A DNA stretch of 64,000 nt, taken from the NCBI GenBank assembly GCA_028718605.1, contig JAQULM010000003.1, positions 16,971-80,970 of the forward strand. Reading direction: 5' to 3'. This document shows positions 21,763-31,568 of this stretch, one piece after another; within the stretch, counting starts at the first letter, position 1; every line of letters begins with the position of its first letter. The position numbers and the translations under genes were made by a program. The notes beneath the pieces were generated by a model. It had not been told where the DNA came from. It made no database searches and saw only the letters and a list, made by a program, of their open reading frames with translations. The DNA comes from Patescibacteria group bacterium (GTDB lineage Bacteria; Patescibacteriota; Patescibacteriia; UBA10025; JAHIVO01).

Positions 21763-23130
21763 ATGCACGAACACACAACCGACCAACTCGAGGAACAGAT
21801 CAGCCAATGGCGGAGTTTTCTCCAGCACCGGCAGGCCATCCATGCCACTGACGTCGCCGAATTGGAGGACCACCTCAGGGAGCAGATCGCCCGGCTGGCT
21901 AAAACGGGCCTGAGCGCTGATGAAGCGTTTCTGGTAGCGGTCAAGCGGCTGGGCAAACTCGACGAGCTGTCGAAAGAGTTCGCCCGGGAACATTCGGATC
22001 GCCTGTGGAAGCAGCTGGTCCTCACCTCCCAGGATACGGACCAGCCGGAACGCCGGAACCATACAGACGTCATCGCCGCATTGGGGTTCGCCCTCGTGGC
22101 GGCCGTGCTGGTAAAACTCCCGTCGTTGTTTGGCCTGGACATTGACCACGATACGGACTTCTACGTACGGAACATCAGCTTTTTCGTGCTCCCGGTTTTG
22201 GCGGCCTACTTCATCTGGAAACGGGGCGCTTCCCGTACGACGCTCATCCCGATGGCCGTCGGCCTGGCCGTCGCCGCGGCGTTCGCGAACATCTATCCGT
22301 TCGTTTCCGGAGGGTCGACCGAAACTCTCGTCGGCCTGCATATTCCGATCGGGCTATGGGTCGCCTTCGGCATGATTTACGCGGGCACGCGCTGGCGCGA
22401 AACAGCCGGCCGGATGGATTTCATACGGTATACCGGCGAACTGTTCATCTATTACGTCCTGATCGCCCTGGGCGGCGGTGTGCTGACCGGATTCATGGCC
22501 GCTATTTTTAATTCCATCGGTTTTGACCTGGAACCGATCGTCGGCACGTGGATCATCCCCTGCGGCGCTGCCGGAGCCGTCATCATTGGGTCGTGGCTGG
22601 TCGAAGCGAAACAGAGCGTCATCGAAAACATGGCGCCCGTCCTGACACGGCTGTTCACTCCCCTGTTCGCGATCGTGCTGGTCGTGTTCCTGGCGACGAT
22701 CGCCCTATCCGGCCATGGGATCGATACCGACCGGGATATCCTGATCGCCTTCGACCTGCTGTTAATCGTAGTGCTCGGCCTGCTCGTATACTCGATATCG
22801 GCCCGGACCCCCCAGGCCCGGCCCGGCGCCTTCGACGTACTGCAGGTGATCCTGCTCTCAAGCGCCCTCGTGGCTGATGCGGTCGCCCTCTGGGCCATCG
22901 TCTCGCGAATTTCCGAGTTCGGCTTCAGTCCGAACCGCGTCGCTGCGCTGGGAGTGAACGTCATCCTGCTGGTGAACCTGCTATGGTCAGTCGTACTGTA
23001 CGTGCGTTTCCTGCGCGGTCGGGCGGTCTTCTCGCAACTGGAACGCTGGCAAACTAATTATTTGCTCGTGTATTTGGCCTGGTCAGCGGTCGTGGTTATT
23101 GTGTTCCCACCGCTGTTCGGGTACAAGTAA
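21763..23130 (+). CDS. PadR-associated polytopic membrane protein
   Basis: 455 aa. Cytoplasmic helical N-domain (~95 aa) followed by about 10 TM helices. Overlaps or abuts the padR stop. Confidence 0.55.
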   Translation: MHEHTTDQLEEQISQWRSFLQHRQAIHATDVAELEDHLREQIARLAKTGLSADEAFLVAVKRLGKLDELSKEFAREHSDRLWKQLVLTSQDTDQPERRNHTDVIAALGFALVAAVLVKLPSLFGLDIDHDTDFYVRNISFFVLPVLAAYFIWKRGASRTTLIPMAVGLAVAAAFANIYPFVSGGSTETLVGLHIPIGLWVAFGMIYAGTRWRETAGRMDFIRYTGELFIYYVLIALGGGVLTGFMAAIFNSIGFDLEPIVGTWIIPCGAAGAVIIGSWLVEAKQSVIENMAPVLTRLFTPLFAIVLVVFLATIALSGHGIDTDRDILIAFDLLLIVVLGLLVYSISARTPQARPGAFDVLQVILLSSALVADAVALWAIVSRISEFGFSPNRVAALGVNVILLVNLLWSVVLYVRFLRGRAVFSQLERWQTNYLLVYLAWSAVVVIVFPPLFGYK

Positions 23131-23174
23131 AAAACCGCCCCCACCCGATACACTACACAGGGGGAGCACAAAAC

Positions 23175-24269
23175 CTAAGCGAGAATATACGCGGAAGCGG
23201 GACCCTTGCCAACTTGTTTGATTGTCCCCAGTTGCTTCAAACGCTGCAAGTGTAGCTGCGCGGTTCGCCTTGGGCAGCGCAGAATATCCACGACATCCTT
23301 CACGGTAATGCGCTGGTTCGTGTCTAAAAAATCCAAGATAGAAAGCTGATCATGGCCGAGGTATTGCTGCTGGCGCCCCTTGGTATCCACTTTTCGCACT
23401 GCCAGGTTTTGGACCAACCGCTGCACATTTTGAATTTCCACGGCAAATCCATTAACGAAGTACTCCAGCCACGGCGTCAGCTCCACCCGCCGTTCATCAT
23501 AGGTGGCGCCGGTATTGATGGCCGCATAGTACGCTGGCCGGTTCGTATTGTAGAAGTCCTCAAGCACGAAAAGCTTCCGAAAGTCGTATCCCCGCTGGTA
23601 GAGCACGAGGGTAGCGATCGCCCGAGCTGTACGGCCATTACCGTCGGCAAAGGGGTGGATGGCGGCGATTTCTTGGTGGATAATTCCCGCGGTAATGACT
23701 GGGTGTACCTCCGCATGGCTTGCCTGTCCAACCCATGCCAAAAGGTCTTGGACCAAACCTCGTACTCGCTTGGCATCGGGTGCGGTGTACATAACCTGCG
23801 GCGGGCTACCAACGCGACGGCGAATGACGTATACAGGCCGAGTTCGGTACTTGCCGCTCTGCTTTCCTGGCAGTGTATTTGCAGTAACCAGTGCATGGAT
23901 ACGGAGAAAAACCTTCTCTGTCAGGGGACGCTTTATGGCAACCACCTGCTCAATGTACCGCATCGCCTGCAAGTAATTTTCTACTTCGTGAATATCACGC
24001 TCCGGCGCATCCACCGTACGGCGTATTGACAGTGCTTCTACCTGCTGCAGGTTGAGCATGTTACCCTCGATGGCCGTAGAGCTATGGGTCATGCGAATGC
24101 GGGCCTGCCGACGCAGGCGGAGCTCTTGGCGCGGTAAAATTTTGGCACGCGTAATCACTGACCGAGCTTCGGCAATTACCGTAAGCTTTCGGACAATGCT
24201 GTTGGTGAGTGTGTACTTCGGCTTGAACATAGGCACGTACAGTATACCACCATACGAATAATCGCGCAA
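23175..24269 (-). CDS. Fic/DOC family protein (AMPylation-type) with C-terminal winged-helix
   Basis: Canonical Fic motif HPFADGNGRTAR. Fic_N-like TAIEGN motif. C-terminal HTH-like region. Confidence 0.85.
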   Translation of the reverse strand: MRDYSYGGILYVPMFKPKYTLTNSIVRKLTVIAEARSVITRAKILPRQELRLRRQARIRMTHSSTAIEGNMLNLQQVEALSIRRTVDAPERDIHEVENYLQAMRYIEQVVAIKRPLTEKVFLRIHALVTANTLPGKQSGKYRTRPVYVIRRRVGSPPQVMYTAPDAKRVRGLVQDLLAWVGQASHAEVHPVITAGIIHQEIAAIHPFADGNGRTARAIATLVLYQRGYDFRKLFVLEDFYNTNRPAYYAAINTGATYDERRVELTPWLEYFVNGFAVEIQNVQRLVQNLAVRKVDTKGRQQQYLGHDQLSILDFLDTNQRITVKDVVDILRCPRRTAQLHLQRLKQLGTIKQVGKGPASAYILA

Positions 24270-24420
24270 GAATCGCGCATCTATCGCGCAATGATTATCC
24301 CCCGCCCCCTCCCCATCCCCTTCTTCCTCCTTCTAACTTCCAAACCTACTTCATACTACCTCCAACCCACTTCTGTACTGAAGCACCCGCCGGCACAGTA
24401 CGCTTTCTCAACATTCTGGC

Positions 24421-24786
24421 TTATTGTTTTTTGAACTGCAGGGAAATGGAATTAACGCAGTAGCGGGTATCCTTCTCAGTCATCCGCTCGCCGGTAAAGA
24501 CGTGCCCGAGGTGCGCCCCGCAGCGCTCGCAGGTGATCTCCGTGCGCACGCCGTCGGCGTCCGGCACGCGCTTGACCGCGCCAGACACCGCATCGTCAAA
24601 GCTCGGCCACCCGCACCCGGCGTCGAACTTGTCATCTGACCTGAAGAGCTCGGCTCCGCACCGCTTGCAGACGTACGTCCCCCGCTCGAAAAATTGGTCA
24701 TACTGCCCGGAATAGGGAGCTTCCGTACCCTTGCGCACGATCACCGCTTCCTCTTCCCTGGTCAATTGATTAAATTTTTTCTGCAT
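24421..24786 (-). CDS. msrB: peptide-methionine (R)-S-oxide reductase MsrB
   Basis: CxxC...CxxC zinc site and catalytic CGWPSF...RTEITCERCGAHLGHVF. Confidence 0.85.
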   Translation of the reverse strand: MQKKFNQLTREEEAVIVRKGTEAPYSGQYDQFFERGTYVCKRCGAELFRSDDKFDAGCGWPSFDDAVSGAVKRVPDADGVRTEITCERCGAHLGHVFTGERMTEKDTRYCVNSISLQFKKQ

Positions 24787-24999
24787 GCCTGAAGTATACC
24801 GTCCGTATCCGCCACTGGCAAAACGTGTAATTACAAAAAACCGCCTCGAAAAGCGACGGCATTCTTCCTCCCTGCCCGCTTCGCCCATGCGAAGCACCCG
24901 CCTGAATCGCCGTTTCGGCGGGCAGGTGGCGGGCGGGCCTGAAATCGGCATTATACCCTTCTTTAAGTATTTTTTTTTACTATACTACTATTCAATTAT

Positions 25000-25830
25000 T
25001 TAATTATGTCTCGGAAATAACCCCCTCCAACTACGATTACTGACATGAAAAATTGGTAGTGAATTATTTGGACAATTATGCTGAAACACAACCATAAGTC
25101 CGCAATTTCCATGCCCAGCAGGTTCTTTACTATTTGCCTTTTTACAATAGTTTCTCAATCGATCTTTTTCAGAACCGGTAAAATGTTGACATTCATTTGA
25201 AAAAAAATTATCTGAATCATTTAGCTCATGACCTGATATTACAACTAACTCAGTCTCGGAATTAATTCGCTCACGTGCCTGTCGAGTTGAAGCAGTGACA
25301 CACAAATAACATCTACCAACACCAGTAACTAACATGGAAGTTGTTTTACCCCAGGCATCACAAACTTGATCCCCACTTCCGCAAAAATCATCGACAAATA
25401 CTATAGTATCCTCCGGTCCAAGTTTCTGTCCAATAATTTGACTAAGAGGAATAAACCACTCTTTATATTTTTTACTTTCGAGATTATTTGCTCTTCTAAA
25501 TTGATAAAGCATACTATCTCCACTCTCACCAGCACTTCCTGTTGAGTATGCAACAAATCGCCAACGTCCCGTAAGTTTCGAATGATCGTCATTCCATCCT
25601 GAAATTGATCTCAAGCATTGTTGATAAAGAGAATTTATCCGTTCCATGCTATAAAATTCCACTACATCTAGAGTACGCGCTGCTAAATCTTTATCTCGCG
25701 CTCGAAATTGATTAATCCAGTTATCGATTGAATATCGATCAATACTTGATCTATAAAGGCGAAATTGAGATAACCATGTATCTATTCGCCTTGAATCAAT
25801 TTGGGTATTTTGTTGATTGGGACTTTTCAC
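25000..25830 (-). CDS. hypothetical protein with PRTase-like (phosphoribosyltransferase type I) motif
   Basis: 276 aa. TIVFVDDFCGSGDQV matches the PRPP-binding loop pattern (hydrophobic-DD-x-x-SG). It overlaps the upstream gene by 4 nt. Confidence 0.45.
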   Translation of the reverse strand: MKSPNQQNTQIDSRRIDTWLSQFRLYRSSIDRYSIDNWINQFRARDKDLAARTLDVVEFYSMERINSLYQQCLRSISGWNDDHSKLTGRWRFVAYSTGSAGESGDSMLYQFRRANNLESKKYKEWFIPLSQIIGQKLGPEDTIVFVDDFCGSGDQVCDAWGKTTSMLVTGVGRCYLCVTASTRQARERINSETELVVISGHELNDSDNFFSNECQHFTGSEKDRLRNYCKKANSKEPAGHGNCGLMVVFQHNCPNNSLPIFHVSNRSWRGLFPRHN

Positions 25831-26804
25831 AATTCATTTCCTCGCCCTAACTTTTTTAACACATCACGTATAATAATTGAGAGTTTTTCTAGTTTTTCCC
25901 ACAACTTGTTCTGACCATAATATTGTTCCGTATCGATATTTTTCAAGCGAACTAATAATTTATCAACGTCTTGAGTTAATTTAGTAGCGTTCGATGCCGT
26001 TCTTGCTGATTCAATATTTAAATAATCTGGCGTCAAGCTAGGTTCGTCGGTAAATTCCTTGAATAATTTTGAAATTTCCTTCTTCTTTTTTGCCTTAACT
26101 GCATTATTAATATATTGCTTTACAATACGAAAATCTGTTATTGATTTAATACCTTTCACCTCGTACTTCTTAAGCATGGCAACCGTAACATGATCGTGAA
26201 GTTGTCTCTTTTTAAACCATGGGAAACTATTTACATTTCGATCATGCAATATTGGGTATAGCTCGATAAAAAAATCTGAATTTATACGTTTTTTTGGATC
26301 AGGATCAAGCATTAAGTCTTGAAATTTTCTCGGGAACGAAAGCAACTTCATGCACCTACTAATAAGCGACTCATTTAAACTTGTTAACACTGAAAGTCGG
26401 TGAACATTTTTATCTTTTACTTCGTTAATTAATAACTCCAGTTTTAGAGCTGTCGGCATTAGTTCCCAATCCATTCGTAACTTATGAATTTGGAACATCG
26501 TAATAATATTCCATACAAGTGTTGGTTCTGCCACTTCATTTGCTGGAATCGAATCGAGATTTAGCTCTTTTGCACATGTCCACCTTCTTTGACCATCCAG
26601 AATAGTAAAATCTCCGGTTTTTGAATCTTTATACACAGTGAGCGGCACAAGTATACCAACTTTCTTAATCGAATCTCGTAAAACTTTCATATCTTCCTCG
26701 TCGAAAAGTAGTCGAGGATTATGCGGATTCGGCTTTAAGTTTTTTGTCGGAATATTCTGAAGTCCAATTACTTGAGTGGAATTTTTTTGCTCAATGACAC
26801 TCAT
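25827..26804 (-). CDS. ParB/Srx-superfamily (DGQ[QH]R / DUF262-like) N-terminal domain protein
   Basis: KPNPHNPR and FTILDGQRRWTCAKELNL resemble the ParB nuclease-domain core (hP.NPR ... GERRwRAA) and the DGQQR/DGQHR motif of DndB/DUF262 proteins. Helical C-terminal half. Confidence 0.6.
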   Translation of the reverse strand: MSVIEQKNSTQVIGLQNIPTKNLKPNPHNPRLLFDEEDMKVLRDSIKKVGILVPLTVYKDSKTGDFTILDGQRRWTCAKELNLDSIPANEVAEPTLVWNIITMFQIHKLRMDWELMPTALKLELLINEVKDKNVHRLSVLTSLNESLISRCMKLLSFPRKFQDLMLDPDPKKRINSDFFIELYPILHDRNVNSFPWFKKRQLHDHVTVAMLKKYEVKGIKSITDFRIVKQYINNAVKAKKKKEISKLFKEFTDEPSLTPDYLNIESARTASNATKLTQDVDKLLVRLKNIDTEQYYGQNKLWEKLEKLSIIIRDVLKKLGRGNEL

Positions 26805-26815
26805 ATTTTTTTATC

Positions 26816-27625
26816 TTAAACATTTTTAAGCGGCATATTACTAATTAACAATTCATAAGCATTCTTTCTATACCTGCCAAAACCTGCCACATTACGTCGA
26901 ACTGGCAAGCGAATAAAATTCCACATCTTTGATATGTGCCTTGCTTCTAATGAATCAGCGTACGATACAATAAAATCAGCCCCAATTTTTTTTAAAGCGA
27001 GCAGTCTTTTTGAAAAACGGGGAATATCCGATATATTAAATAAGGTATGCCCGTATTCTTTAAAGATTCGACGCGAAGTCACTGCAAAGGGGGGGTCTAA
27101 GTATACAAAATCACCCATTCTAACTAAATCGAGTGTTTTTTCAAAATCACCATTTATTAGAGCAGCTTTACGTAAATTCTTTGCACTATTTATAAATTCA
27201 ACCTTAGCACCGTATTCTCCCGGTGCGTCGCCAAAAGGTACATTAAAATTCCCAGAGGTATTGGTACGATAGATTCCATTAAAACAATTACGATTCAAAT
27301 ACAAAAAACGTACAGCCCTCGTCTTTTTATCAAGTATATTTTCATCTAATTCATCTCTCCATTTATAATAAGTTGTTTTGTCACGCTTTAGCAATTTTAG
27401 TCGACGATATATTTCCTCCGGGTCGTTTCGGATAACCTTATAAAAATTAATTAATGACGCATTATTATCACCCAATATTGCCTCGTTGGGATTGATTTCA
27501 AAAAAAAGACATGCTGATCCTGCAAATGGTTCAACGTAACGGTTATGACGTGGCTGCCAATATAACTTAAGTCGACTAACTTGTTTTCGCTTGCTCCCAG
27601 CCCATCGTAATAAAGGTTTATTCAT
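26816..27625 (-). CDS. Dam-like (D12 class) N6-adenine DNA methyltransferase
   Basis: LRWAGSKRK, EPFAGSA and DPPF motifs in D12-class order. AGGAG RBS. Confidence 0.8.
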   Translation of the reverse strand: MNKPLLRWAGSKRKQVSRLKLYWQPRHNRYVEPFAGSACLFFEINPNEAILGDNNASLINFYKVIRNDPEEIYRRLKLLKRDKTTYYKWRDELDENILDKKTRAVRFLYLNRNCFNGIYRTNTSGNFNVPFGDAPGEYGAKVEFINSAKNLRKAALINGDFEKTLDLVRMGDFVYLDPPFAVTSRRIFKEYGHTLFNISDIPRFSKRLLALKKIGADFIVSYADSLEARHISKMWNFIRLPVRRNVAGFGRYRKNAYELLISNMPLKNV

Positions 27626-27666
27626 ATCCCCATTCTCCTCTTATTTCCCAAAAAAATCAACCACAC

Positions 27667-28782
27667 CTACCGCACCCCAAACAACCTCCCTAGTACCGAT
27701 ATCCTCCGTAGAATGAATTCATAGGCCAGGGCGACTCCGGCATACGACGCAATGGTTATTACCAGAAATTTCAGCCACACAGCCGCATCCCACTGGATCA
27801 CGTAATAGCCGACGCTGATGACAATGGGCAAATGGATGATGTACGCGGGGTACGACGCCGGCCCGAGGTACCTGACCGCGCGGGTCGGACGGTTGAGGAA
27901 GGCGTGGCCGAGGGCGAGGAAAGCCAGGATGGCTGTCCAGGCATACATGTCGTGCAATAAGTCAAAGGCGATCGTGCCCAGGGTGAATCCTCCCTGCCGC
28001 TCTCCCCAAGCCTGCAGCATGGTGTACACAACACCGAGAATCAACGCGAACGCAAGCAGGAAATACTTCTGGCGGTCGACGCGCTCCTGGAGCCGCTGGT
28101 CGGTCATCCAGATAAACCCAAAAAGCAGCAGGAGGAAGAAGCTCGCGGCGCTGCGGTCAACCACGTCGGGCACGCCGTCGAAGAGGAGGAGGAAAAACGG
28201 CACGATGAACAGCGCGCCTGGTTTAGCGAGGACCGTTGTTACCCGGGAGAGCAGCCGTGCGCCCCGCTCGCTCTTGAACCACATAAAAATCGGCAGAGCG
28301 ATAAGGGAGAGGACCAGGAGGAACAGGACGAACCATAGGTGGCCGGGTGAAAAGTGGCCGGCGTATCCCGTGTAGTCGCCGCCGTCCAGCGAAAAAAACG
28401 TAGGGTAGTAGCGCCAGAATGAAATGCGCTCACCGGTGGCAAACCGGTAGCCGTAGTACCCCATCACGGGGATGACCGTCGCTATTGCCACGACCAACGG
28501 CACGAGCAGGCGCAGCACGCGCCGGGCGATAAACTGCCGCCACGTATGCCGGCGCAGCATAAACCAGGCCGAAGCGCCGGCGACGAAGAAGAGGAGCTGC
28601 ATCCCCCACGCCCCCACGAAATCCGTGAACTGGGCGAGGAACACGCTGGACGCGCCGTTCTTCAGGAAGAACTCTCCGCCGACGTCGAACATGACCGCGG
28701 CGTGGAACGGGACAAGCATGGCAATCACTCCGACGCGAAGCCAGTCGAGATCATAGCGCCGGATGTTTTCTTGGGTATTCAT
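27667..28782 (-). CDS. acyltransferase 3 family membrane protein (OatA/OpgC-like)
   Basis: 371 aa, about 10 TM helices. N-terminal DLDWLRVGVIAMLVPFHAAVMF is typical of Acyl_transf_3. Confidence 0.7.
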   Translation of the reverse strand: MNTQENIRRYDLDWLRVGVIAMLVPFHAAVMFDVGGEFFLKNGASSVFLAQFTDFVGAWGMQLLFFVAGASAWFMLRRHTWRQFIARRVLRLLVPLVVAIATVIPVMGYYGYRFATGERISFWRYYPTFFSLDGGDYTGYAGHFSPGHLWFVLFLLVLSLIALPIFMWFKSERGARLLSRVTTVLAKPGALFIVPFFLLLFDGVPDVVDRSAASFFLLLLFGFIWMTDQRLQERVDRQKYFLLAFALILGVVYTMLQAWGERQGGFTLGTIAFDLLHDMYAWTAILAFLALGHAFLNRPTRAVRYLGPASYPAYIIHLPIVISVGYYVIQWDAAVWLKFLVITIASYAGVALAYEFILRRISVLGRLFGVR

Positions 28783-29085
28783 TACGTAATTTTTTCACTT
28801 TTTTACGTAAAAATCAACTCCCCACATTAACGTTTGTGTGGGAGCAGGCCCGCCCTCCTCCGCGCATCTCTTCTTCGTCCCCGCTCCCAGATTTACGCCC
28901 ATATAAAAAATGTTACGGAAATTGAGTGAGGAGGAATGCCCACCTCTAGGCGGACGCGGCATCTTGTTTGAGCGAACGCAGCGAAGCCCTGCCGGTGTAG
29001 GCGAAGCGAGGAGCGAGTTATGCCACGGAATGACGACGAGCCAATTTCTGTTAATTTTTTATCCTGGGCGGCACTTCTTTTCTGT

Positions 29086-29113
29086 CCACTTTTCTTTGTG
29101 CAAAGAAAAGTGG
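29086..29113. repeat. 28-bp palindrome ccacttttctttg tg caaagaaaagtgg
   Basis: Related to the 20369..20396 palindrome (shared CCRCTTTTCTT...AAGAAAAGYGG arms). A further palindrome gccatacgtatggc lies nearby at about 29167. Confidence 0.55.
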
Positions 29114-29274
29114 AGGGAAGTGAAGAGGCTAACCCCTCCACCTATCTTCCCCTGCCCGCCGCGCATATGCCATACGTATGGCGCAGGGGGCGTTTACCGA
29201 AAGGTACCCGCTACTTTTTTTCTATTTGCTTCGTGTCCGGCCCGGATACGCGAGGCCGCGTTTGGCGCATAAAA

Positions 29275-29622
29275 CTAATGCGGAAACAGTACTTCGCCTC
29301 CCGCAAACAGCACCCAGAAACCGCCGATTACGCACAGGATAATAAAAACGACGAGGTTCCAGGTACTCCTGTCTTTTATTTTGAAAATCGCCCGAATGTT
29401 GAGATACAGCGCAATAACAAAGAGGATGATTTCCAACACTACCATTGGAATGCTGCTCGAGCGCATCTGCAGAATGCCGCGGAAAATGCGGCCAGCAGGG
29501 ATCAGCAGCACGCCCCAGGCAATGGCGATGATCCCAAAGGTTAATGCCATCTTCCCCTCTTTTGTCCGAGGCATTGATTCTCTCGCGGGTTTTAACTGTT
29601 CCTGATTGTTTGGATTTTCCAT
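29275..29622 (-). CDS. small membrane protein
   Basis: 115 aa with 3 TM helices. Confidence 0.4.
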   Translation of the reverse strand: MENPNNQEQLKPARESMPRTKEGKMALTFGIIAIAWGVLLIPAGRIFRGILQMRSSSIPMVVLEIILFVIALYLNIRAIFKIKDRSTWNLVVFIILCVIGGFWVLFAGGEVLFPH

Positions 29623-29627
29623 ATTTT

Positions 29628-30026
29628 TTATGAACAGGTTGTAAAAAACATCGATGAAATCGTCTGGACAATGAGCAACCCGATAACCTGGCTTGAAACC
29701 ATCGCGATGTACTTCGCGTACCCGACGACCTGTTTCCCGTCTTTTGTCTTATTCTTCGCCCGCAGCTGCAGCACGCTGACGAAAAAGGTGATGCTCATGA
29801 CCATCAGTATGAGAAAAATCGCGCCGTAGAGAATGTTGTACCCTTCGTTCCTGTTCGCCTCAGGAGATGAACCGTCGTTAACGATGCACGGGTCGTAGAT
29901 GAACCAGTAGTCGATTGCCGCAAACACGGTCAGGATCCAGCCGGCGATGAAAAAAATGTTCAAGAACGTGGCGAGCCTGGGGAATGCGTCCTTGAATGGC
30001 ATTGTTGGTTGTGTTGATTGGTCCAT
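29628..30026 (-). CDS. small membrane protein
   Basis: 132 aa with 3-4 TM helices. Confidence 0.4.
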   Translation of the reverse strand: MDQSTQPTMPFKDAFPRLATFLNIFFIAGWILTVFAAIDYWFIYDPCIVNDGSSPEANRNEGYNILYGAIFLILMVMSITFFVSVLQLRAKNKTKDGKQVVGYAKYIAMVSSQVIGLLIVQTISSMFFTTCS

Positions 30027-30977: not shown

Positions 30978-31568
30978 TCAAAAAAGGCGGATGATGGCGT
31001 GCCGGTTGAAACGGCGGTACGGATGATGCCGGAATCGAGCGGGCAAGCCTGCTTTCCCGGGGTTATGTCCCATGTAGGCAATGACGGTGTGCAGGTATTT
31101 TCTGTTGCTAACAATGCGGGTGTAAAAGCGTTTTTGGAATACGGGATAATTCATATCGTACGAATCACGAATCGCATCGCAATAATACGATTTGATGCCG
31201 TGCATTACATCGGATATTGTATACCCCCGAGCGCGGGCCGCCGTGCCCGCGCTCCCATTTTTTAGGCGCACCGCACCCACAGCGGGGTGCGGTGGGAGGA
31301 TATTATATAGTAATAGATGAATATGGTCGGGCATTATTTGAAATGCTAGAACTTCGAATTGCTTCATATCGCACGTTTTGAATATCACCCGACACATCAA
31401 CCCCGCCAGTTCCCCATCCTCAAACATCGGAATCCCCTCCCGCGTGCGAAACGCGGTGAAATATGGATATCCATCTTGGTACACGCGCCGTTGCGTCATA
31501 CATAAATACCTTCCGTTTGTGGGGGAAGGCCTGTGCCTGCATCGTACCACGATTCTGGAAAATATCAA
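30978..31568 (-). CDS. tnpA: IS200/IS605-family Y1 (HUH) transposase, RAYT-like, containing in-frame REP-like palindromes
   Basis: FEVLAFQIMPDHIHLLL (HUH motif) and VFQKRFYTRIVSN..YLHTVIAYMGHNPGKAGL (catalytic Tyr region). A ~35-aa insert between these blocks is encoded by two GC-rich palindromes. Confidence 0.6.
   Translation of the reverse strand: MIFSRIVVRCRHRPSPTNGRYLCMTQRRVYQDGYPYFTAFRTREGIPMFEDGELAGLMCRVIFKTCDMKQFEVLAFQIMPDHIHLLLYNILPPHPAVGAVRLKNGSAGTAARARGYTISDVMHGIKSYYCDAIRDSYDMNYPVFQKRFYTRIVSNRKYLHTVIAYMGHNPGKAGLPARFRHHPYRRFNRHAIIRLF
31221..31295. repeat. REP-like palindromes (gagcgcgggc..gcccgcgctc and caccgcaccc..ggggtgcggtg) inside the transposase ORF
   Basis: atacccccgagcgcgggccgccgtgcccgcgctcccatttt is near-identical in its arms and flanks to 32179..32220. 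Confidence 0.65.

What the first reader, a model, noticed from the sequence alone, without database searches (positions are those of the whole stretch)
24990..27640. Low-GC island encoding a Dam-like MTase + ParB/DGQ(Q/H)R-like protein + PRTase-like protein: candidate uncharacterised DNA-modification or defence module
Three tightly packed minus-strand genes sit in a ~2.6-kb block at about 38% GC, in a genome that is otherwise about 55-60% GC. The spacing is 11 nt and then a 4-nt overlap. The genes are a D12-class N6-adenine MTase (LRWAGSKRK / EPFAGSA / DPPF), a 325-aa protein with a ParB/Srx nuclease-NTPase-type N-domain, and a 276-aa protein with a PRPP-loop-like motif. The ParB-type domain carries PNPHNPR and ILDGQRRW, which resemble the DGQQR/DGQHR motif of DUF262, DndB, SspE, GmrSD and DpdB. 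The PRTase-like motif is IVFVDDFCGSGDQV. ParB/DUF262-type domains recur in systems that sense or write DNA modifications, and PRTase-like domains are recurrent effectors in phage-defence systems. I do not recognise this exact three-gene combination as a named system. The island is inserted between msrB and an acyltransferase gene, next to a Fic gene, with no integrase and no obvious flanking direct repeats. The alternative reading is a phage-derived orphan MTase cassette.
Basis: partly seen in the sequence, partly recalled or inferred. Interest (0 to 1): 0.8.

Follow-up and report, generated by a model that had tools for sequence, protein, structure and literature searches.

The report
Methylase-ParB-PRTase three-gene candidate defence cassette
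A 2.6-kb piece of foreign DNA carries three tightly linked genes (a DNA methylase, a ParB-type DNA clamp and a phosphoribosyltransferase-type "effector"). The same trio recurs as a self-contained cassette in bacteria of about ten phyla, so it is most likely an undescribed restriction-modification-like immune or addiction system that has no nuclease.

Summary
Three intact minus-strand genes lie at 27625-25000. Island GC is 35.4% against 55-60% in the flanks (z = -6.5). The gaps are 11 nt and a 4-nt overlap.

- **The genes.** They are a Dam-family N6-adenine methylase, a canonical ParB/Noc/KorB-type protein (CTPase-fold N-domain plus HTH, not DUF262), and a full-length PRTase-CE protein. PRTase-CE is the effector family of type III-A retrons.
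- **Conservation.** ParB and PRTase are adjacent in 71 of 80 PRTase-seeded genome loci. All 69 pairs with both sides on the contig also have a DNA methylase next to them. Five of five ParB-seeded loci show the same trio. Flanking genes are unrelated housekeeping genes.
- **Methylase exchange.** The methylase is swappable (short Dam-like, long D12, C5), while the ParB-PRTase core is constant and translationally coupled.
- **Origin.** No close phage or plasmid copies were found, and no paper or PADLOC model describes the trio.
- **Best reading (inferred, untested).** The methylase marks self DNA. The ParB-like switch, whose two CTP-hydrolysis residues are replaced, reads DNA state. It controls a PRPP-consuming PRTase that arrests infection.
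- **Extra finding.** Half of the relatives carry a selected 17-bp palindrome inside the ParB gene, a candidate loading site. It is degenerate in this window.

The parts
26816..27625 (-). Dam-family (D12 class) N6-adenine DNA methyltransferase, 269 aa; probable GATC specificity
   Evidence: Pfam MethyltransfD12 1.2e-43 and NCBIfam TIGR00571 dam at 198 bits (cut-off 114.85). The closest solved structures are DpnM, E. coli Dam and T4 Dam, all GATC enzymes. Residues aligned with E. coli Dam K9/Y119/N120/L122/R124/P134 are R7/F115/N116/I118/R120/P130 (the roles of these Dam residues are from my own knowledge).
25827..26804 (-). ParB-like protein, 325 aa: ParB/Srx CTPase-fold N-domain (about aa 13-110), HTH DNA-binding domain (about 112-165), and a family-specific all-helical C-terminal half (about 170-320)
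   Evidence: ParB_N 2.8e-15 and TIGR00180 63 bits. The family profile matches Caulobacter ParB 6t1f at 1.4e-16, and also M. xanthus ParB, Spo0J and Noc. AF2 pLDDT is 81; Foldseek top hits are CTP/CDP-bound ParB, Noc and KorB. The M. xanthus catalytic residues Q52 and E93 correspond to N29 and Q72 here, and both are invariant in the family. There is no PADLOC hit.
25000..25830 (-). PRTase-CE family phosphoribosyltransferase-like effector, 276 aa, translationally coupled to the ParB gene (4-nt overlap)
   Evidence: Pfam PF24390 3.4e-51 over the full length; PADLOC PRTase_III-A 1.1e-39. AF2 pLDDT is 90.9 with a type I PRTase fold. The PRPP loop DD(147/148)-x-x-G-x-G-x-Q, the SAGESGD loop and G239-x14-PNN are invariant. 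The Gx14PNN motif is shared with retron effectors (PMC12746101). The ParB-stop/PRTase-start overlap is 4 nt in 43 of 62 loci.
26494..26510 (.). Degenerate copy (5 of 8 arm pairs) of the family's intragenic 17-bp palindrome AACATCGT-N-ACGATGTT, which encodes N-I-V-T-M-F (here N-I-I-T-M-F); candidate ParB loading or operator site
   Evidence: One search gives the window copy, with 3 mismatches. The palindrome is perfect in 35 related loci and absent from 753 kb of flanks. 38 perfect copies were seen against 9.7 expected from each gene's own codon usage. The Thr codon is ACG in 49 of 69 loci against 31.5% elsewhere in the same genes, p = 2e-11.
27626..27666 (-). 41-nt leader between the acyltransferase stop codon and the methylase ATG, with a GAGGAG ribosome-binding site and no promoter-like site; marks the upstream edge of the low-GC island
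   Evidence: Sequence read; promoter scan; GC profile.
24840..24857 (-). Terminator-like hairpin plus T-run downstream of the cassette, probably the acyltransferase gene's original terminator; the msrB promoter-like site (24821-24793) and the msrB ATG (24786) follow

Best explanation
The region is a horizontally acquired, self-contained three-gene cassette that works on restriction-modification logic but has no nuclease. Step 1 (shown by homology): the Dam-family methylase methylates host DNA, probably at GATC. Step 2 (fold and residues shown; function inferred): the ParB-like protein is an NTP-switch DNA clamp. It keeps the nucleotide-binding arginines and the HTH but has lost both residues needed for CTP hydrolysis. 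It should therefore bind DNA and lock on rather than cycle, and it acts as the DNA-state sensor and/or autoregulator of the cassette. Step 3 (family membership shown; activity inferred from relatives): the ParB-like protein is made in fixed proportion with, and most likely complexed to, the PRTase-CE effector. When released or activated, the PRTase consumes PRPP or otherwise disturbs nucleotide pools, as reported for the Retron-Eco11 and ShosT PRTases. This stops replication of an invader, or kills a cell that has lost the cassette. Step 4 (inferred from comparative genomics): methylation by whichever methylase is present keeps the ParB-PRTase pair silent on self DNA. The signal could be unmethylated incoming DNA or loss or inhibition of host methylation. 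Which of these it is remains unknown.
For: Obligatory linkage: all 69 loci with both sides of the ParB-PRTase pair on the contig have a DNA methylase directly adjacent, and so do 5 of 5 loci seeded from ParB. The methylase is exchangeable while the core is constant. 59 loci have a short Dam-like enzyme, 9 a long (about 400 aa) D12 enzyme and 1 a C5 enzyme. Position and strand vary, with at least 6 class changes and at least 4 position changes on the ParB+PRTase tree. ParB and PRTase are translationally coupled. The PRTase is an effector type: it matches retron III-A effector models. Relatives are fused to STAND, NB-ARC or AAA NTPases. Other relatives sit beside N6-methylases in two further architectures. 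Published activities are PRPP depletion by the Retron-Eco11 PRTase (PMC12746101) and disruption of purine metabolism by ShosT (PMC11961720, abstract). The ParB-like protein has the CTP-clamp fold with catalytic Q replaced by N and E replaced by Q. In M. xanthus ParB, Q52A and E93A keep nucleotide binding and ring closure but largely abolish hydrolysis and slow release from DNA. Mobility signature: cassette GC is below flank GC in all 68 ParB-PRTase loci that have flank data. Among 150 neighbouring proteins no family recurs more than 3 times. Several loci are decayed, for example L020, L044 and L048.
Against: There is no experiment on any member. Flanks are mostly housekeeping genes rather than defence islands, so guilt by association is weak. 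The ParB recognition helix is nearly invariant whichever methylase class is present. This argues against ParB reading the methylase's target sequence through its HTH, so how methylation is sensed is unexplained. GATC is neither avoided nor positionally conserved in the cassettes. The window copy has a degenerate palindrome and no visible promoter of its own, so its activity in this host is uncertain. One locus (L077) keeps an intact PRTase with no ParB and a truncated methylase, so the PRTase alone may be harmless.
Confidence: 0.5

Rival explanations
1. It is a true restriction-modification system in which the ParB/Srx-fold protein is itself the nuclease or nickase acting on unmethylated DNA. 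The PRTase would be an accessory or back-up effector.
For: Some ParB/Srx-superfamily proteins are reported to nick or degrade DNA (RK2 ParB and Osa, cited in PMC12839542). The methylase is obligatory and exchangeable, as in R-M systems.
Against: The protein aligns over the N-domain and HTH with non-nucleolytic CTP clamps. No PD-(D/E)XK, HNH, GIY-YIG or PLD domain was detected in any of the three proteins. The HTH is invariant across methylase classes, whereas restriction enzymes co-vary in specificity with their methylase. The strict coupling to the PRTase makes the PRTase look central rather than accessory.
Confidence: 0.15
2. It is a purely selfish addiction (post-segregational killing) cassette. 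The methylase acts as antidote and ParB-PRTase as toxin, and there is no role against phages.
For: It is a compact mobile cassette with lower GC than every host, scattered insertion sites and frequent decay. It is not consistently found in defence islands.
Against: This is not exclusive with defence, since classical R-M systems do both. Relatives of the effector act in proven anti-phage systems. No mobility gene travels with the cassette.
Confidence: 0.15
3. It is a DNA hypermodification pathway. By analogy with DpdA/DpdB (a transglycosylase plus a ParB-like ATPase), the ParB-like protein would help the PRTase to build or exchange a non-canonical base in DNA. The methylase would be part of that pathway.
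For: ParB-like ATPases assist DNA base exchange in Dpd and regulate Dnd (PMC10164549 and PMC11662687, listed). PRTases make N-glycosidic bonds.
Against: No PRTase is known to act on DNA. The characterised close functional relatives act on PRPP and the nucleotide pool. A pathway enzyme would not tolerate replacement of an N6-A methylase by a C5 methylase. No restriction partner that would read such a mark is linked to the cassette.
Confidence: 0.07
4. It is a remnant of a plasmid or prophage partition/maintenance region: a ParB with an orphan methylase, as is common in mobile elements, plus a passenger gene.
For: ParB_N and TIGR00180 matches; PHROG ParB families match the N-terminal half. ParB-methylase pairings are common in phages (my own knowledge).
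Against: No ParA, replication, integrase or structural gene recurs next to the trio among 150 neighbours. The PRTase has no relative in 2.9 million viral contigs and none above about 34% identity in PLSDB. Phage ParB hits cover only aa 1-167 at 30% identity or less (37% over one 100-residue fragment). The same three genes recur intact in about ten phyla.
Confidence: 0.05

Closest known systems
Type III-A retrons (for example Retron-Eco11): RT + msDNA + PRTase-like effector with a winged-helix DNA-binding partner
   Same: The effector family is the same (PADLOC PRTase_III-A 1e-39, Pfam PRTase-CE, shared PRPP loop and Gx14PNN motif). In both systems the effector is paired with a DNA-binding protein.
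   Different: There is no reverse transcriptase and no msr/msd RNA (only three ORFs; no significant Rfam match). The DNA-binding partner is a ParB-type NTP switch rather than a winged helix. A DNA methylase is obligatory, which retrons lack.
Type II restriction-modification systems (and methylation-coupled systems such as BREX, DISARM and MADS)
   Same: A compact mobile cassette, an obligatory but exchangeable DNA methylase in variable orientation, lower GC than the host, and frequent decay.
   Different: There is no recognisable nuclease and none of the BREX/DISARM/MADS signature genes. The predicted output is nucleotide-pool damage rather than DNA cleavage. The putative sensor does not co-vary with the methylase class.
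CTP-dependent ParB-family clamps (ParB/Spo0J, Noc, KorB, VirB)
   Same: The N-domain fold, the GxRRxxA box, the conserved arginines and the HTH domain. A palindromic site inside its own gene recalls the parS site inside B. subtilis spo0J (my own knowledge).
   Different: There is no ParA partner. The catalytic Q and E are replaced by N and Q, and the ENxxR box by IHKLR. The C-terminal half is new and has no Pfam match. The protein is linked to an effector enzyme and a methylase.
ShosTA and DS-32 (PRTase toxin with a DprA-like or NADAR-type antidote)
   Same: A PRTase-type toxin or effector that acts on nucleotide metabolism and is held in check by a linked partner.
   Different: The PRTase subfamily is different (only 5e-4 and 19 bits to the NCBIfam DS32_1 model; no ShosT model hit in PADLOC). 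The partners are different.
PRTase-CE + ORC/Cdc6-like ATPase + CARF6-like protein + N6-methylase operons, and the N6-methylase + PRTase-CE pairs on Klebsiella IncFII plasmids (both seen here; apparently also uncharacterised)
   Same: A PRTase-CE effector next to a DNA methylase.
   Different: The middle module is an ORC/Cdc6-like P-loop protein plus a CARF6-like protein, or is absent, instead of ParB. PRTase identity to the window protein is only 21-34%.

Membership tests
PRTase-CE (Pfam PF24390), the retron type III-A effector-like PRTases | Full-length match to the family model above the gathering score | tested here: met
   175 bits against a cut-off of 27, aa 35-274 on model positions 1-253 of 253; PADLOC PRTase_III-A 1.1e-39.
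PRTase-CE (Pfam PF24390), the retron type III-A effector-like PRTases | PRPP-binding loop with an acidic pair, and the retron-type Gx14PNN motif | tested here: met
   IVFVDDFCGSGDQ, with D147, D148, G151, G153 and Q155 invariant. G239-x14-P254-N255-N256 is present and invariant. The motif is as described in PMC12746101; the tail here is PNNxxP rather than PNNxP.
PRTase-CE (Pfam PF24390), the retron type III-A effector-like PRTases | Type I PRTase fold | tested here: met
   AF2 pLDDT 90.9. Foldseek hits to UPRT, HGPRT and APRT at E 1e-4 to 1e-3 with probability 1.0 but low TM-scores (0.27-0.35).
Retron (type III-A) | Reverse transcriptase gene and msr/msd non-coding RNA next to the effector | tested here: not met
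   The cassette holds only three ORFs and none is an RT. No Rfam family matched in 23000-30000 apart from one chance miRNA hit.
Dam family DNA-(adenine-N6)-methyltransferase (TIGR00571 / D12 class) | Score above the curated cut-off; motif I FxGxG and motif IV DPPY/F | tested here: met
   198 bits against 114.85; EPFAGSA and DPPF are present.
Dam family DNA-(adenine-N6)-methyltransferase (TIGR00571 / D12 class) | GATC specificity | tested here: inconclusive
   The best solved relatives are all GATC enzymes and the E. coli Dam DNA-contact positions are conserved or conservatively replaced. Specificity cannot be proven from sequence. The score for the E. coli Dam equivalog NF008152 is far below its cut-off (124 against 441).
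Type II restriction-modification system | A cognate restriction endonuclease (PD-(D/E)XK, HNH, GIY-YIG or PLD fold) linked to the methylase | tested here: not met
   No nuclease domain was found in either partner by Pfam, NCBIfam or PADLOC, and no restriction-enzyme model hit was found.
ParABS partition system / canonical ParB CTPase | ParB N-domain with the GxRRxxA box plus an HTH DNA-binding domain | tested here: met
   ParB_N 2.8e-15; TIGR00180 63.1 bits against 58.45; the profile aligns over positions 12-165 with ParB 6t1f.
ParABS partition system / canonical ParB CTPase | Catalytic Gln and Glu (M. xanthus ParB Q52 and E93) and the ENxxR box needed for CTP hydrolysis and ring cycling | tested here: not met
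   The aligned residues are N29, Q72 and I106-H107-K-L-R110, all invariant in the family. The roles of Q52 and E93 are from 10.1101/2021.05.05.442810.
ParABS partition system / canonical ParB CTPase | An adjacent ParA ATPase | tested here: not met
   There is none in the window cassette. No ParA/CbiA-type family recurs among 150 neighbours of related loci, and none appears in the 5 gene tables.
ParABS partition system / canonical ParB CTPase | CTP binding and a parS-type loading site | not testable with these tools
   A candidate 17-bp palindrome lies inside the gene in relatives. Binding needs EMSA, BLI or ChIP-seq.
   At E <= 0.1 only ParB_N was reported by Pfam. There is no PADLOC hit to any Dnd, Ssp, Dpd or GmrSD model. 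The neighbours are a methylase and a PRTase only.
Known or candidate defence systems in PADLOC-DB v2.0.0 | All components match the models of one system | tested here: not met
   The methylase hits only generic MTase_II/oMTase models, ParB has no hit, and the PRTase hits only the retron III-A effector models.

The most novel reading that the evidence does not exclude
This would be a new class of methylation-coupled immunity in which the sensor is a hydrolysis-deficient ParB-type CTP clamp. The clamp loads at a palindrome inside its own gene and monitors the methylation or integrity state of DNA. The restriction step is not DNA cleavage but PRPP and nucleotide-pool collapse by a coupled PRTase. 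It would be one branch of a wider, unrecognised set of methylase + PRTase-CE systems. Other branches use ORC/Cdc6-like plus CARF6-like modules, or no middle module, and one of them is common on Klebsiella KPC plasmids.
Probability: 0.35. Interest if true: 0.85.

Novelty: new variant of a known kind. Interest (0 to 1): 0.68.

Why it matters
If it is confirmed, four things follow.
- It would add a nuclease-free, restriction-modification-like defence or addiction system. That would link epigenetic self-marking to metabolic (PRPP and nucleotide) shutdown.
- It would give ParB-type CTP switches a first role as an immune sensor. So far they are known from chromosome segregation, nucleoid occlusion and gene silencing.
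- It would supply natural hydrolysis-dead ParB variants for studying the mechanism.
- It would explain why PRTase-CE effectors sit beside DNA methylases in several architectures. One of these is a pair carried by well over a hundred Klebsiella conjugative plasmids.

The cassette is small (2.6 kb). An intact copy exists in a cultured strain, Sphingomonas caseinilyticus NSE70-1 (locus L068), so it can be tested directly.

Tried and rejected
1. DUF262/GmrSD/DndB reading of the ParB domain: rejected. Only canonical ParB models and structures match.
2. Phage or plasmid origin. The PRTase has 2 distant hits in INPHARED (23% identity), none in IMG/VR, and no full-length hit above about 28% identity in PLSDB. 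Partial matches over the C-terminal half reach 34%. ParB hits in phages cover only the N-terminal half.
3. Empty-site search, to define the insertion. A metagenome scan with the flanking acyltransferase found one relative at 63% identity (L084). It is not syntenic, so no empty site was found.
4. Flanking repeats, an RNA gene or an own promoter: nothing beyond chance.
5. Defence-island association. Among 150 neighbours of related loci there is no recurrent family and only sporadic defence hits. This gives no support either way.
6. Co-variation of the ParB HTH with methylase class: none. The recognition helix is nearly invariant, so the simple "ParB reads the methylase's site" model is not supported.
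7. GATC avoidance or conserved GATC positions in the cassettes: none.
8. The palindrome as a phage target. There are 11 exact hits in 2.9 million viral contigs, none of them in a ParB-family gene. By my own rough estimate that is about what chance would give.
9. Literature. Ten full-text searches found no paper describing methylase + ParB + PRTase. DS-32, Ophion, ShosTA and the retron papers describe other PRTase systems. The origin of the Pfam name "PRTase-CE" could not be traced.


Full report
**1. Checking the observation**

- Methylase: 27625-26816, 269 aa.
- ParB-like gene: 26804-25827, 325 aa.
- PRTase-like gene: 25830-25000, 276 aa, GTG start.
- The gaps are 11 nt and a 4-nt overlap, and every quoted motif is present.

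The composition signal is strong.
- GC is 35.4% across the island against 55-60% in the immediate flanks and 51.3% for the whole window.
- It is the only stretch of the window below 45% GC. The z-score is -6.5 against all other 2.6-kb windows.
- GC3 is 22-31% against 75-79% in the adjacent acyltransferase and msrB genes.

Pfam confirms the neighbours as SelR/msrB, Acyl_transf_3 and Fic.

The cassette is wedged between the acyltransferase stop codon (27667) and a terminator-like hairpin (24857-24840). The msrB promoter-like site and start codon follow that hairpin.
- No promoter-like site precedes the methylase gene, so the cassette is probably read through from the acyltransferase gene.
- There are no flanking repeats, no integrase and no Rfam match.

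The identical PRTase is on record from an NCBI MAG labelled "Patescibacteria group bacterium" (GCA_028711455.1), with the same neighbours.

**2. What the three proteins are**

*Methylase.*
- It matches Pfam MethyltransfD12 at 1.2e-43 and TIGR00571 (dam) at 198 bits against a cut-off of 114.85.
- Its closest solved relatives are DpnM, E. coli Dam and T4 Dam, all GATC enzymes.
- The positions aligned with the E. coli Dam DNA-contact residues are kept or conservatively replaced: R7, F115, N116, I118, R120 and P130. The roles of these residues are from my own knowledge.
- GATC specificity is therefore likely but unproven.

*ParB-like protein.* It is not a DUF262/DndB/GmrSD-type protein.
- Pfam reports only ParB_N, and TIGR00180 passes its cut-off.
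- A profile of 42 family members aligns over positions 12-165 (N-domain plus HTH) with Caulobacter ParB (1.4e-16), M. xanthus ParB, Spo0J and Noc.
- The AlphaFold model (pLDDT 81) is most similar to CTP/CDP-bound ParB, Noc and KorB.
- DGQRRW is the classical GxRRxxA box.

The two residues shown to be catalytic for CTP hydrolysis in M. xanthus ParB are Q52 and E93.
- In that protein, alanine variants still bind nucleotide and close the ring, but they hydrolyse poorly and leave DNA slowly (10.1101/2021.05.05.442810).
- Here those positions are N29 and Q72.
- The ENxxR box is replaced by I-H-K-L-R.
- These replacements are invariant across the family, while the arginines R31, R73, R74 and R110 are kept.

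I infer a nucleotide-binding switch that locks on rather than cycles. The C-terminal half (about aa 170-320) is helical, strongly conserved and has no Pfam match.

*PRTase.*
- It is a full-length member of Pfam PRTase-CE (3.4e-51).
- It matches the PADLOC models for the effector of type III-A retrons (1.1e-39).
- Its model (pLDDT 90.9) has the type I PRTase fold.
- The acidic pair of the PRPP loop (D147, D148), the SAGESGD loop and the retron-type G-x14-PNN motif are invariant (motif from PMC12746101).
- A search of 1.84 billion cluster representatives finds 3,446 relatives at E <= 1e-3 and 106 at E <= 1e-30.
- Several of these carry the domain fused to STAND, NB-ARC or AAA NTPases, the usual architecture of an immune sensor with its effector.

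**3. Is the trio a unit?**

*PRTase-seeded loci.* A scan of one genome per species (185,579 species) with a PRTase alignment confirmed 243 relatives, of which 80 loci were fetched.
- Systematic ORF calling and HMM/BLAST classification show the ParB-like gene immediately upstream of the PRTase gene in 71 loci.
- In all 69 of these where both sides of the pair are on the contig, a DNA methylase gene is directly adjacent.
- The arrangements are: Dam-like upstream on the same strand (55); Dam-like downstream (4, three of them convergent); a divergent D12 methylase of about 400 aa (4 upstream, 5 downstream); and a C5 methylase (1).

*ParB-seeded loci.* Five loci seeded independently from ParB homologues on long metagenome contigs all read MethyltransfD12 - ParB_N - PRTase-CE.

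*Hosts.* They include Planctomycetota, Acidobacteriota, Pseudomonadota, Bacteroidota, Chloroflexota, Nitrospirota, Verrucomicrobiota, Armatimonadota, Actinomycetota and Clostridia. Nearly all are environmental MAGs. One cultured strain, Sphingomonas caseinilyticus NSE70-1, has an intact cassette (L068).

*Linkage and mobility.*
- The ParB stop codon and the PRTase start codon overlap by 4 nt in 43 of 62 loci and are within 2 nt in the rest but one.
- Mean pairwise identity is 61% for ParB, 51% for the PRTase and 47% for the methylase.
- On a ParB+PRTase tree the methylase class changes at least 6 times and its position or strand at least 4 times.
- Among 150 neighbouring proteins no Pfam family recurs more than three times, and most are housekeeping genes.
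- The cassette has lower GC than its flanks in every ParB-PRTase locus with flank data (68 of 68).
- Several copies are decayed by frameshifts or insertions (L020, L044, L048, L071, L073, L074), or reduced to a lone PRTase (L077).
- The PRTase has no relative in 2.9 million IMG/VR contigs, two hits at 23% identity in INPHARED, and no full-length hit above about 28% identity in PLSDB (34% for partial matches). Phage ParB hits cover only the N-terminal half.

The trio is therefore an autonomous, horizontally moving chromosomal cassette. It has a constant ParB-PRTase core and an obligatory but exchangeable DNA methylase.

**4. How it most likely works**

A methylase that is always present, in any class, position or orientation, is the signature of restriction-modification-type logic. 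Methylation neutralises the other component on self DNA.

Here the other component has no nuclease domain. It consists of a DNA-binding NTP switch and an enzyme of a family used as an immune effector.
- The effector of Retron-Eco11 depletes PRPP when triggered (PMC12746101).
- ShosT disrupts purine metabolism (PMC11961720).
- In type III-A retrons the PRTase also works with a DNA-binding partner, a winged helix that is either separate or fused (PMC7736814).

My best explanation (confidence 0.5) is as follows.
- The methylase marks the host genome.
- The ParB-like protein reports DNA state.
- The ParB-like protein controls the PRTase, whose activation collapses nucleotide supply. That gives abortive infection, or post-segregational killing if the cassette is lost.

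What is shown: gene identities, folds, residue replacements, linkage and modularity. What is inferred: the ParB-PRTase complex, the PRPP-directed activity, the protective role of methylation and the trigger.

The main difficulty is that the ParB recognition helix is almost invariant whatever the methylase class. ParB therefore does not seem to read the methylase's target sequence. GATC is neither avoided nor positionally conserved.

The rivals are listed separately with their tests.
- ParB is itself a methylation-sensitive nickase.
- The cassette is a purely selfish addiction module.
- It is a Dpd-like DNA-hypermodification pathway.
- It is a remnant of a partition module from a mobile element.

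**5. An unexpected feature: a selected palindrome inside the ParB gene**

A search for palindromes shared by the cassettes found AACATCGT-N-ACGATGTT. It encodes the invariant peptide N-I-V-T-M-F, just before the IHKLR box.
- Its arms are perfect in 35 loci, and it has no copy in 753 kb of flanking DNA.
- Codon choice there is abnormal. Thr is ACG in 49 of 69 loci against 31.5% elsewhere in the same genes (p = 2e-11), and ACC appears 4 times against 16.9 expected.
- It is the strongest synonymous outlier among the two- to four-fold degenerate conserved sites.
- Complementary ATT/ACA pairs also occur.
- 38 perfect palindromes were seen where each gene's own codon usage predicts 9.7. None of 100,000 simulations reached more than 22.
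- These tests ignore shared ancestry, although at about 60% protein identity synonymous sites should be saturated.

An odd-length perfect palindrome is typical of a dimeric HTH operator, and its invariance matches the invariance of the ParB recognition helix. I propose it is the loading or operator site of this ParB. This resembles the parS site inside B. subtilis spo0J (my own knowledge). It could give autoregulation of the distal ParB and PRTase genes, or a fixed platform that holds the effector.

The palindrome is not enriched in viral contigs: there are 11 exact hits, none in ParB-family genes. In this window the site is degenerate, with 5 of 8 arm pairs and the peptide N-I-I-T-M-F at 26494-26510. 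The window copy may therefore be regulated differently or be drifting.

**6. Comparison with known systems, and novelty**

The closest known systems are these.
- *Type III-A retrons.* They share the effector family, but the cassette has no RT or msDNA.
- *Type II R-M and other methylation-coupled systems.* They share the logic, but the cassette has no nuclease or signature genes.
- *CTP-dependent ParB clamps.* They share the fold, but the cassette has no ParA and its ParB has altered catalytic residues.

PADLOC-DB v2 has no model for the ParB component and no system that covers the trio. Ten full-text literature searches found no description of it. I could not query current DefenseFinder or REBASE, so prior description elsewhere cannot be excluded.

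Distant PRTase-CE proteins also sit next to N6-methylases in two other architectures.
- One is a four-gene operon with an ORC/Cdc6-like protein and a CARF6-like protein (Moraxella, Burkholderia, Diaphorobacter, Rhizobium, Bradyrhizobium and Acinetobacter records).
- The other is a two-gene methylase-PRTase pair on Klebsiella IncFII plasmids.

This suggests a broader, unrecognised theme of methylase-coupled PRTase-CE systems.

I rate the finding a new variant of a known kind: methylation-coupled defence or addiction with a new sensor-effector pair. There is a realistic chance (about 0.35) that the mechanism is new in kind.

**7. Verdict**

It is right about a conserved, unnamed module with a defence-type effector. 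It is wrong about the DUF262-like nature of the ParB domain. The defence function itself is unproven. Interest is 0.68.

Noticed in passing
window 26494-26510; related loci, e.g. L001:5018-5034, L003:7333-7349, L016:3587-3603, L068:7333-7349: A 17-bp perfect palindrome, AACATCGT-N-ACGATGTT, lies inside the ParB-like gene and encodes NIVTMF. It is kept by synonymous-codon selection: 38 perfect copies against 9.7 expected, and Thr ACG in 49 of 69 loci. It is absent from the flanks and degenerate in the window copy. It is a candidate parS-like or operator site.
   Followed up: partly
L094:3899-8754 (Moraxella osloensis plasmid p4); L093:3875-8644; L091:3914-8822; L095:3890-8713; L092:3710-7689; L081:4911-8805: Distant PRTase-CE genes head a recurring operon: PRTase-CE, then an ORC/Cdc6-like P-loop protein of about 620-680 aa, then a CARF6-like protein of about 310-330 aa, usually followed by an N6 DNA methylase. 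It looks like a second methylase-coupled PRTase-CE system and has no complete PADLOC system match.
   Followed up: partly
L083:3302-5444 (Klebsiella pneumoniae pBSI060-KPC2); Klebsiella accounts for 129 of the 157 plasmid records that match the PRTase: A two-gene pair, an N-6 DNA methylase (413 aa) directly followed by a PRTase-CE protein (297 aa), sits next to the IncFII replicon. I inspected only this one locus. The other listed Klebsiella hits match the same part of the query at the same identity, and most matching plasmids are conjugative, some carrying KPC.
   Followed up: partly
proteins P0354, P0357, P0370, P0375 (about 1,065-1,079 aa); P0374 (649 aa); P0368 (500 aa); P0388 (636 aa): The PRTase-CE domain occurs as a terminal domain fused to AAA/STAND NTPases (AAA_16, ATPase_2, nSTAND1, NB-ARC) and, in one case, to a HAD hydrolase. 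This is the architecture of sensor-effector immune proteins.
   Followed up: partly
L020, L044, L048, L073, L074 (frameshifted genes); L071:6478-8088; L077:8001-9295: Some cassettes are decaying. Genes are split by frameshifts. L071 has a 1.6-kb insertion between the ParB and PRTase genes. L077 keeps an intact PRTase with no ParB and a truncated methylase, which hints that the PRTase alone is tolerated.
   Followed up: no
L016:55-3178: The only cassette with a C5 cytosine methylase also has two extra upstream genes on the same strand: an unknown 333-aa protein and a Methyltransf_35 (PF20553) putative O-methyltransferase.
   Followed up: no
window 25827-26804: One public gene call for the ParB-like gene starts 38 codons too late (287 aa, P0121 and locus L096). 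This removes the conserved NPHNPR motif. The 325-aa start agrees with all homologues.
   Followed up: yes
window 23175-24269 and 30978-31568: A Fic/DOC-family gene with a C-terminal winged-helix region lies two genes downstream of the cassette. An IS200-like Y1 (REP-associated-type) transposase gene lies 3.3 kb upstream. Neither recurs next to related cassettes.
   Followed up: no
window 24858-24950: A GC-rich, hairpin-prone spacer (caggcccgcccgccacctgcccgcc...gcgggcagggagg) lies between the AT-rich end of the island and the terminator-like hairpin. Its function is unknown, and it may be part of the original 3' UTR of the acyltransferase gene.
   Followed up: no
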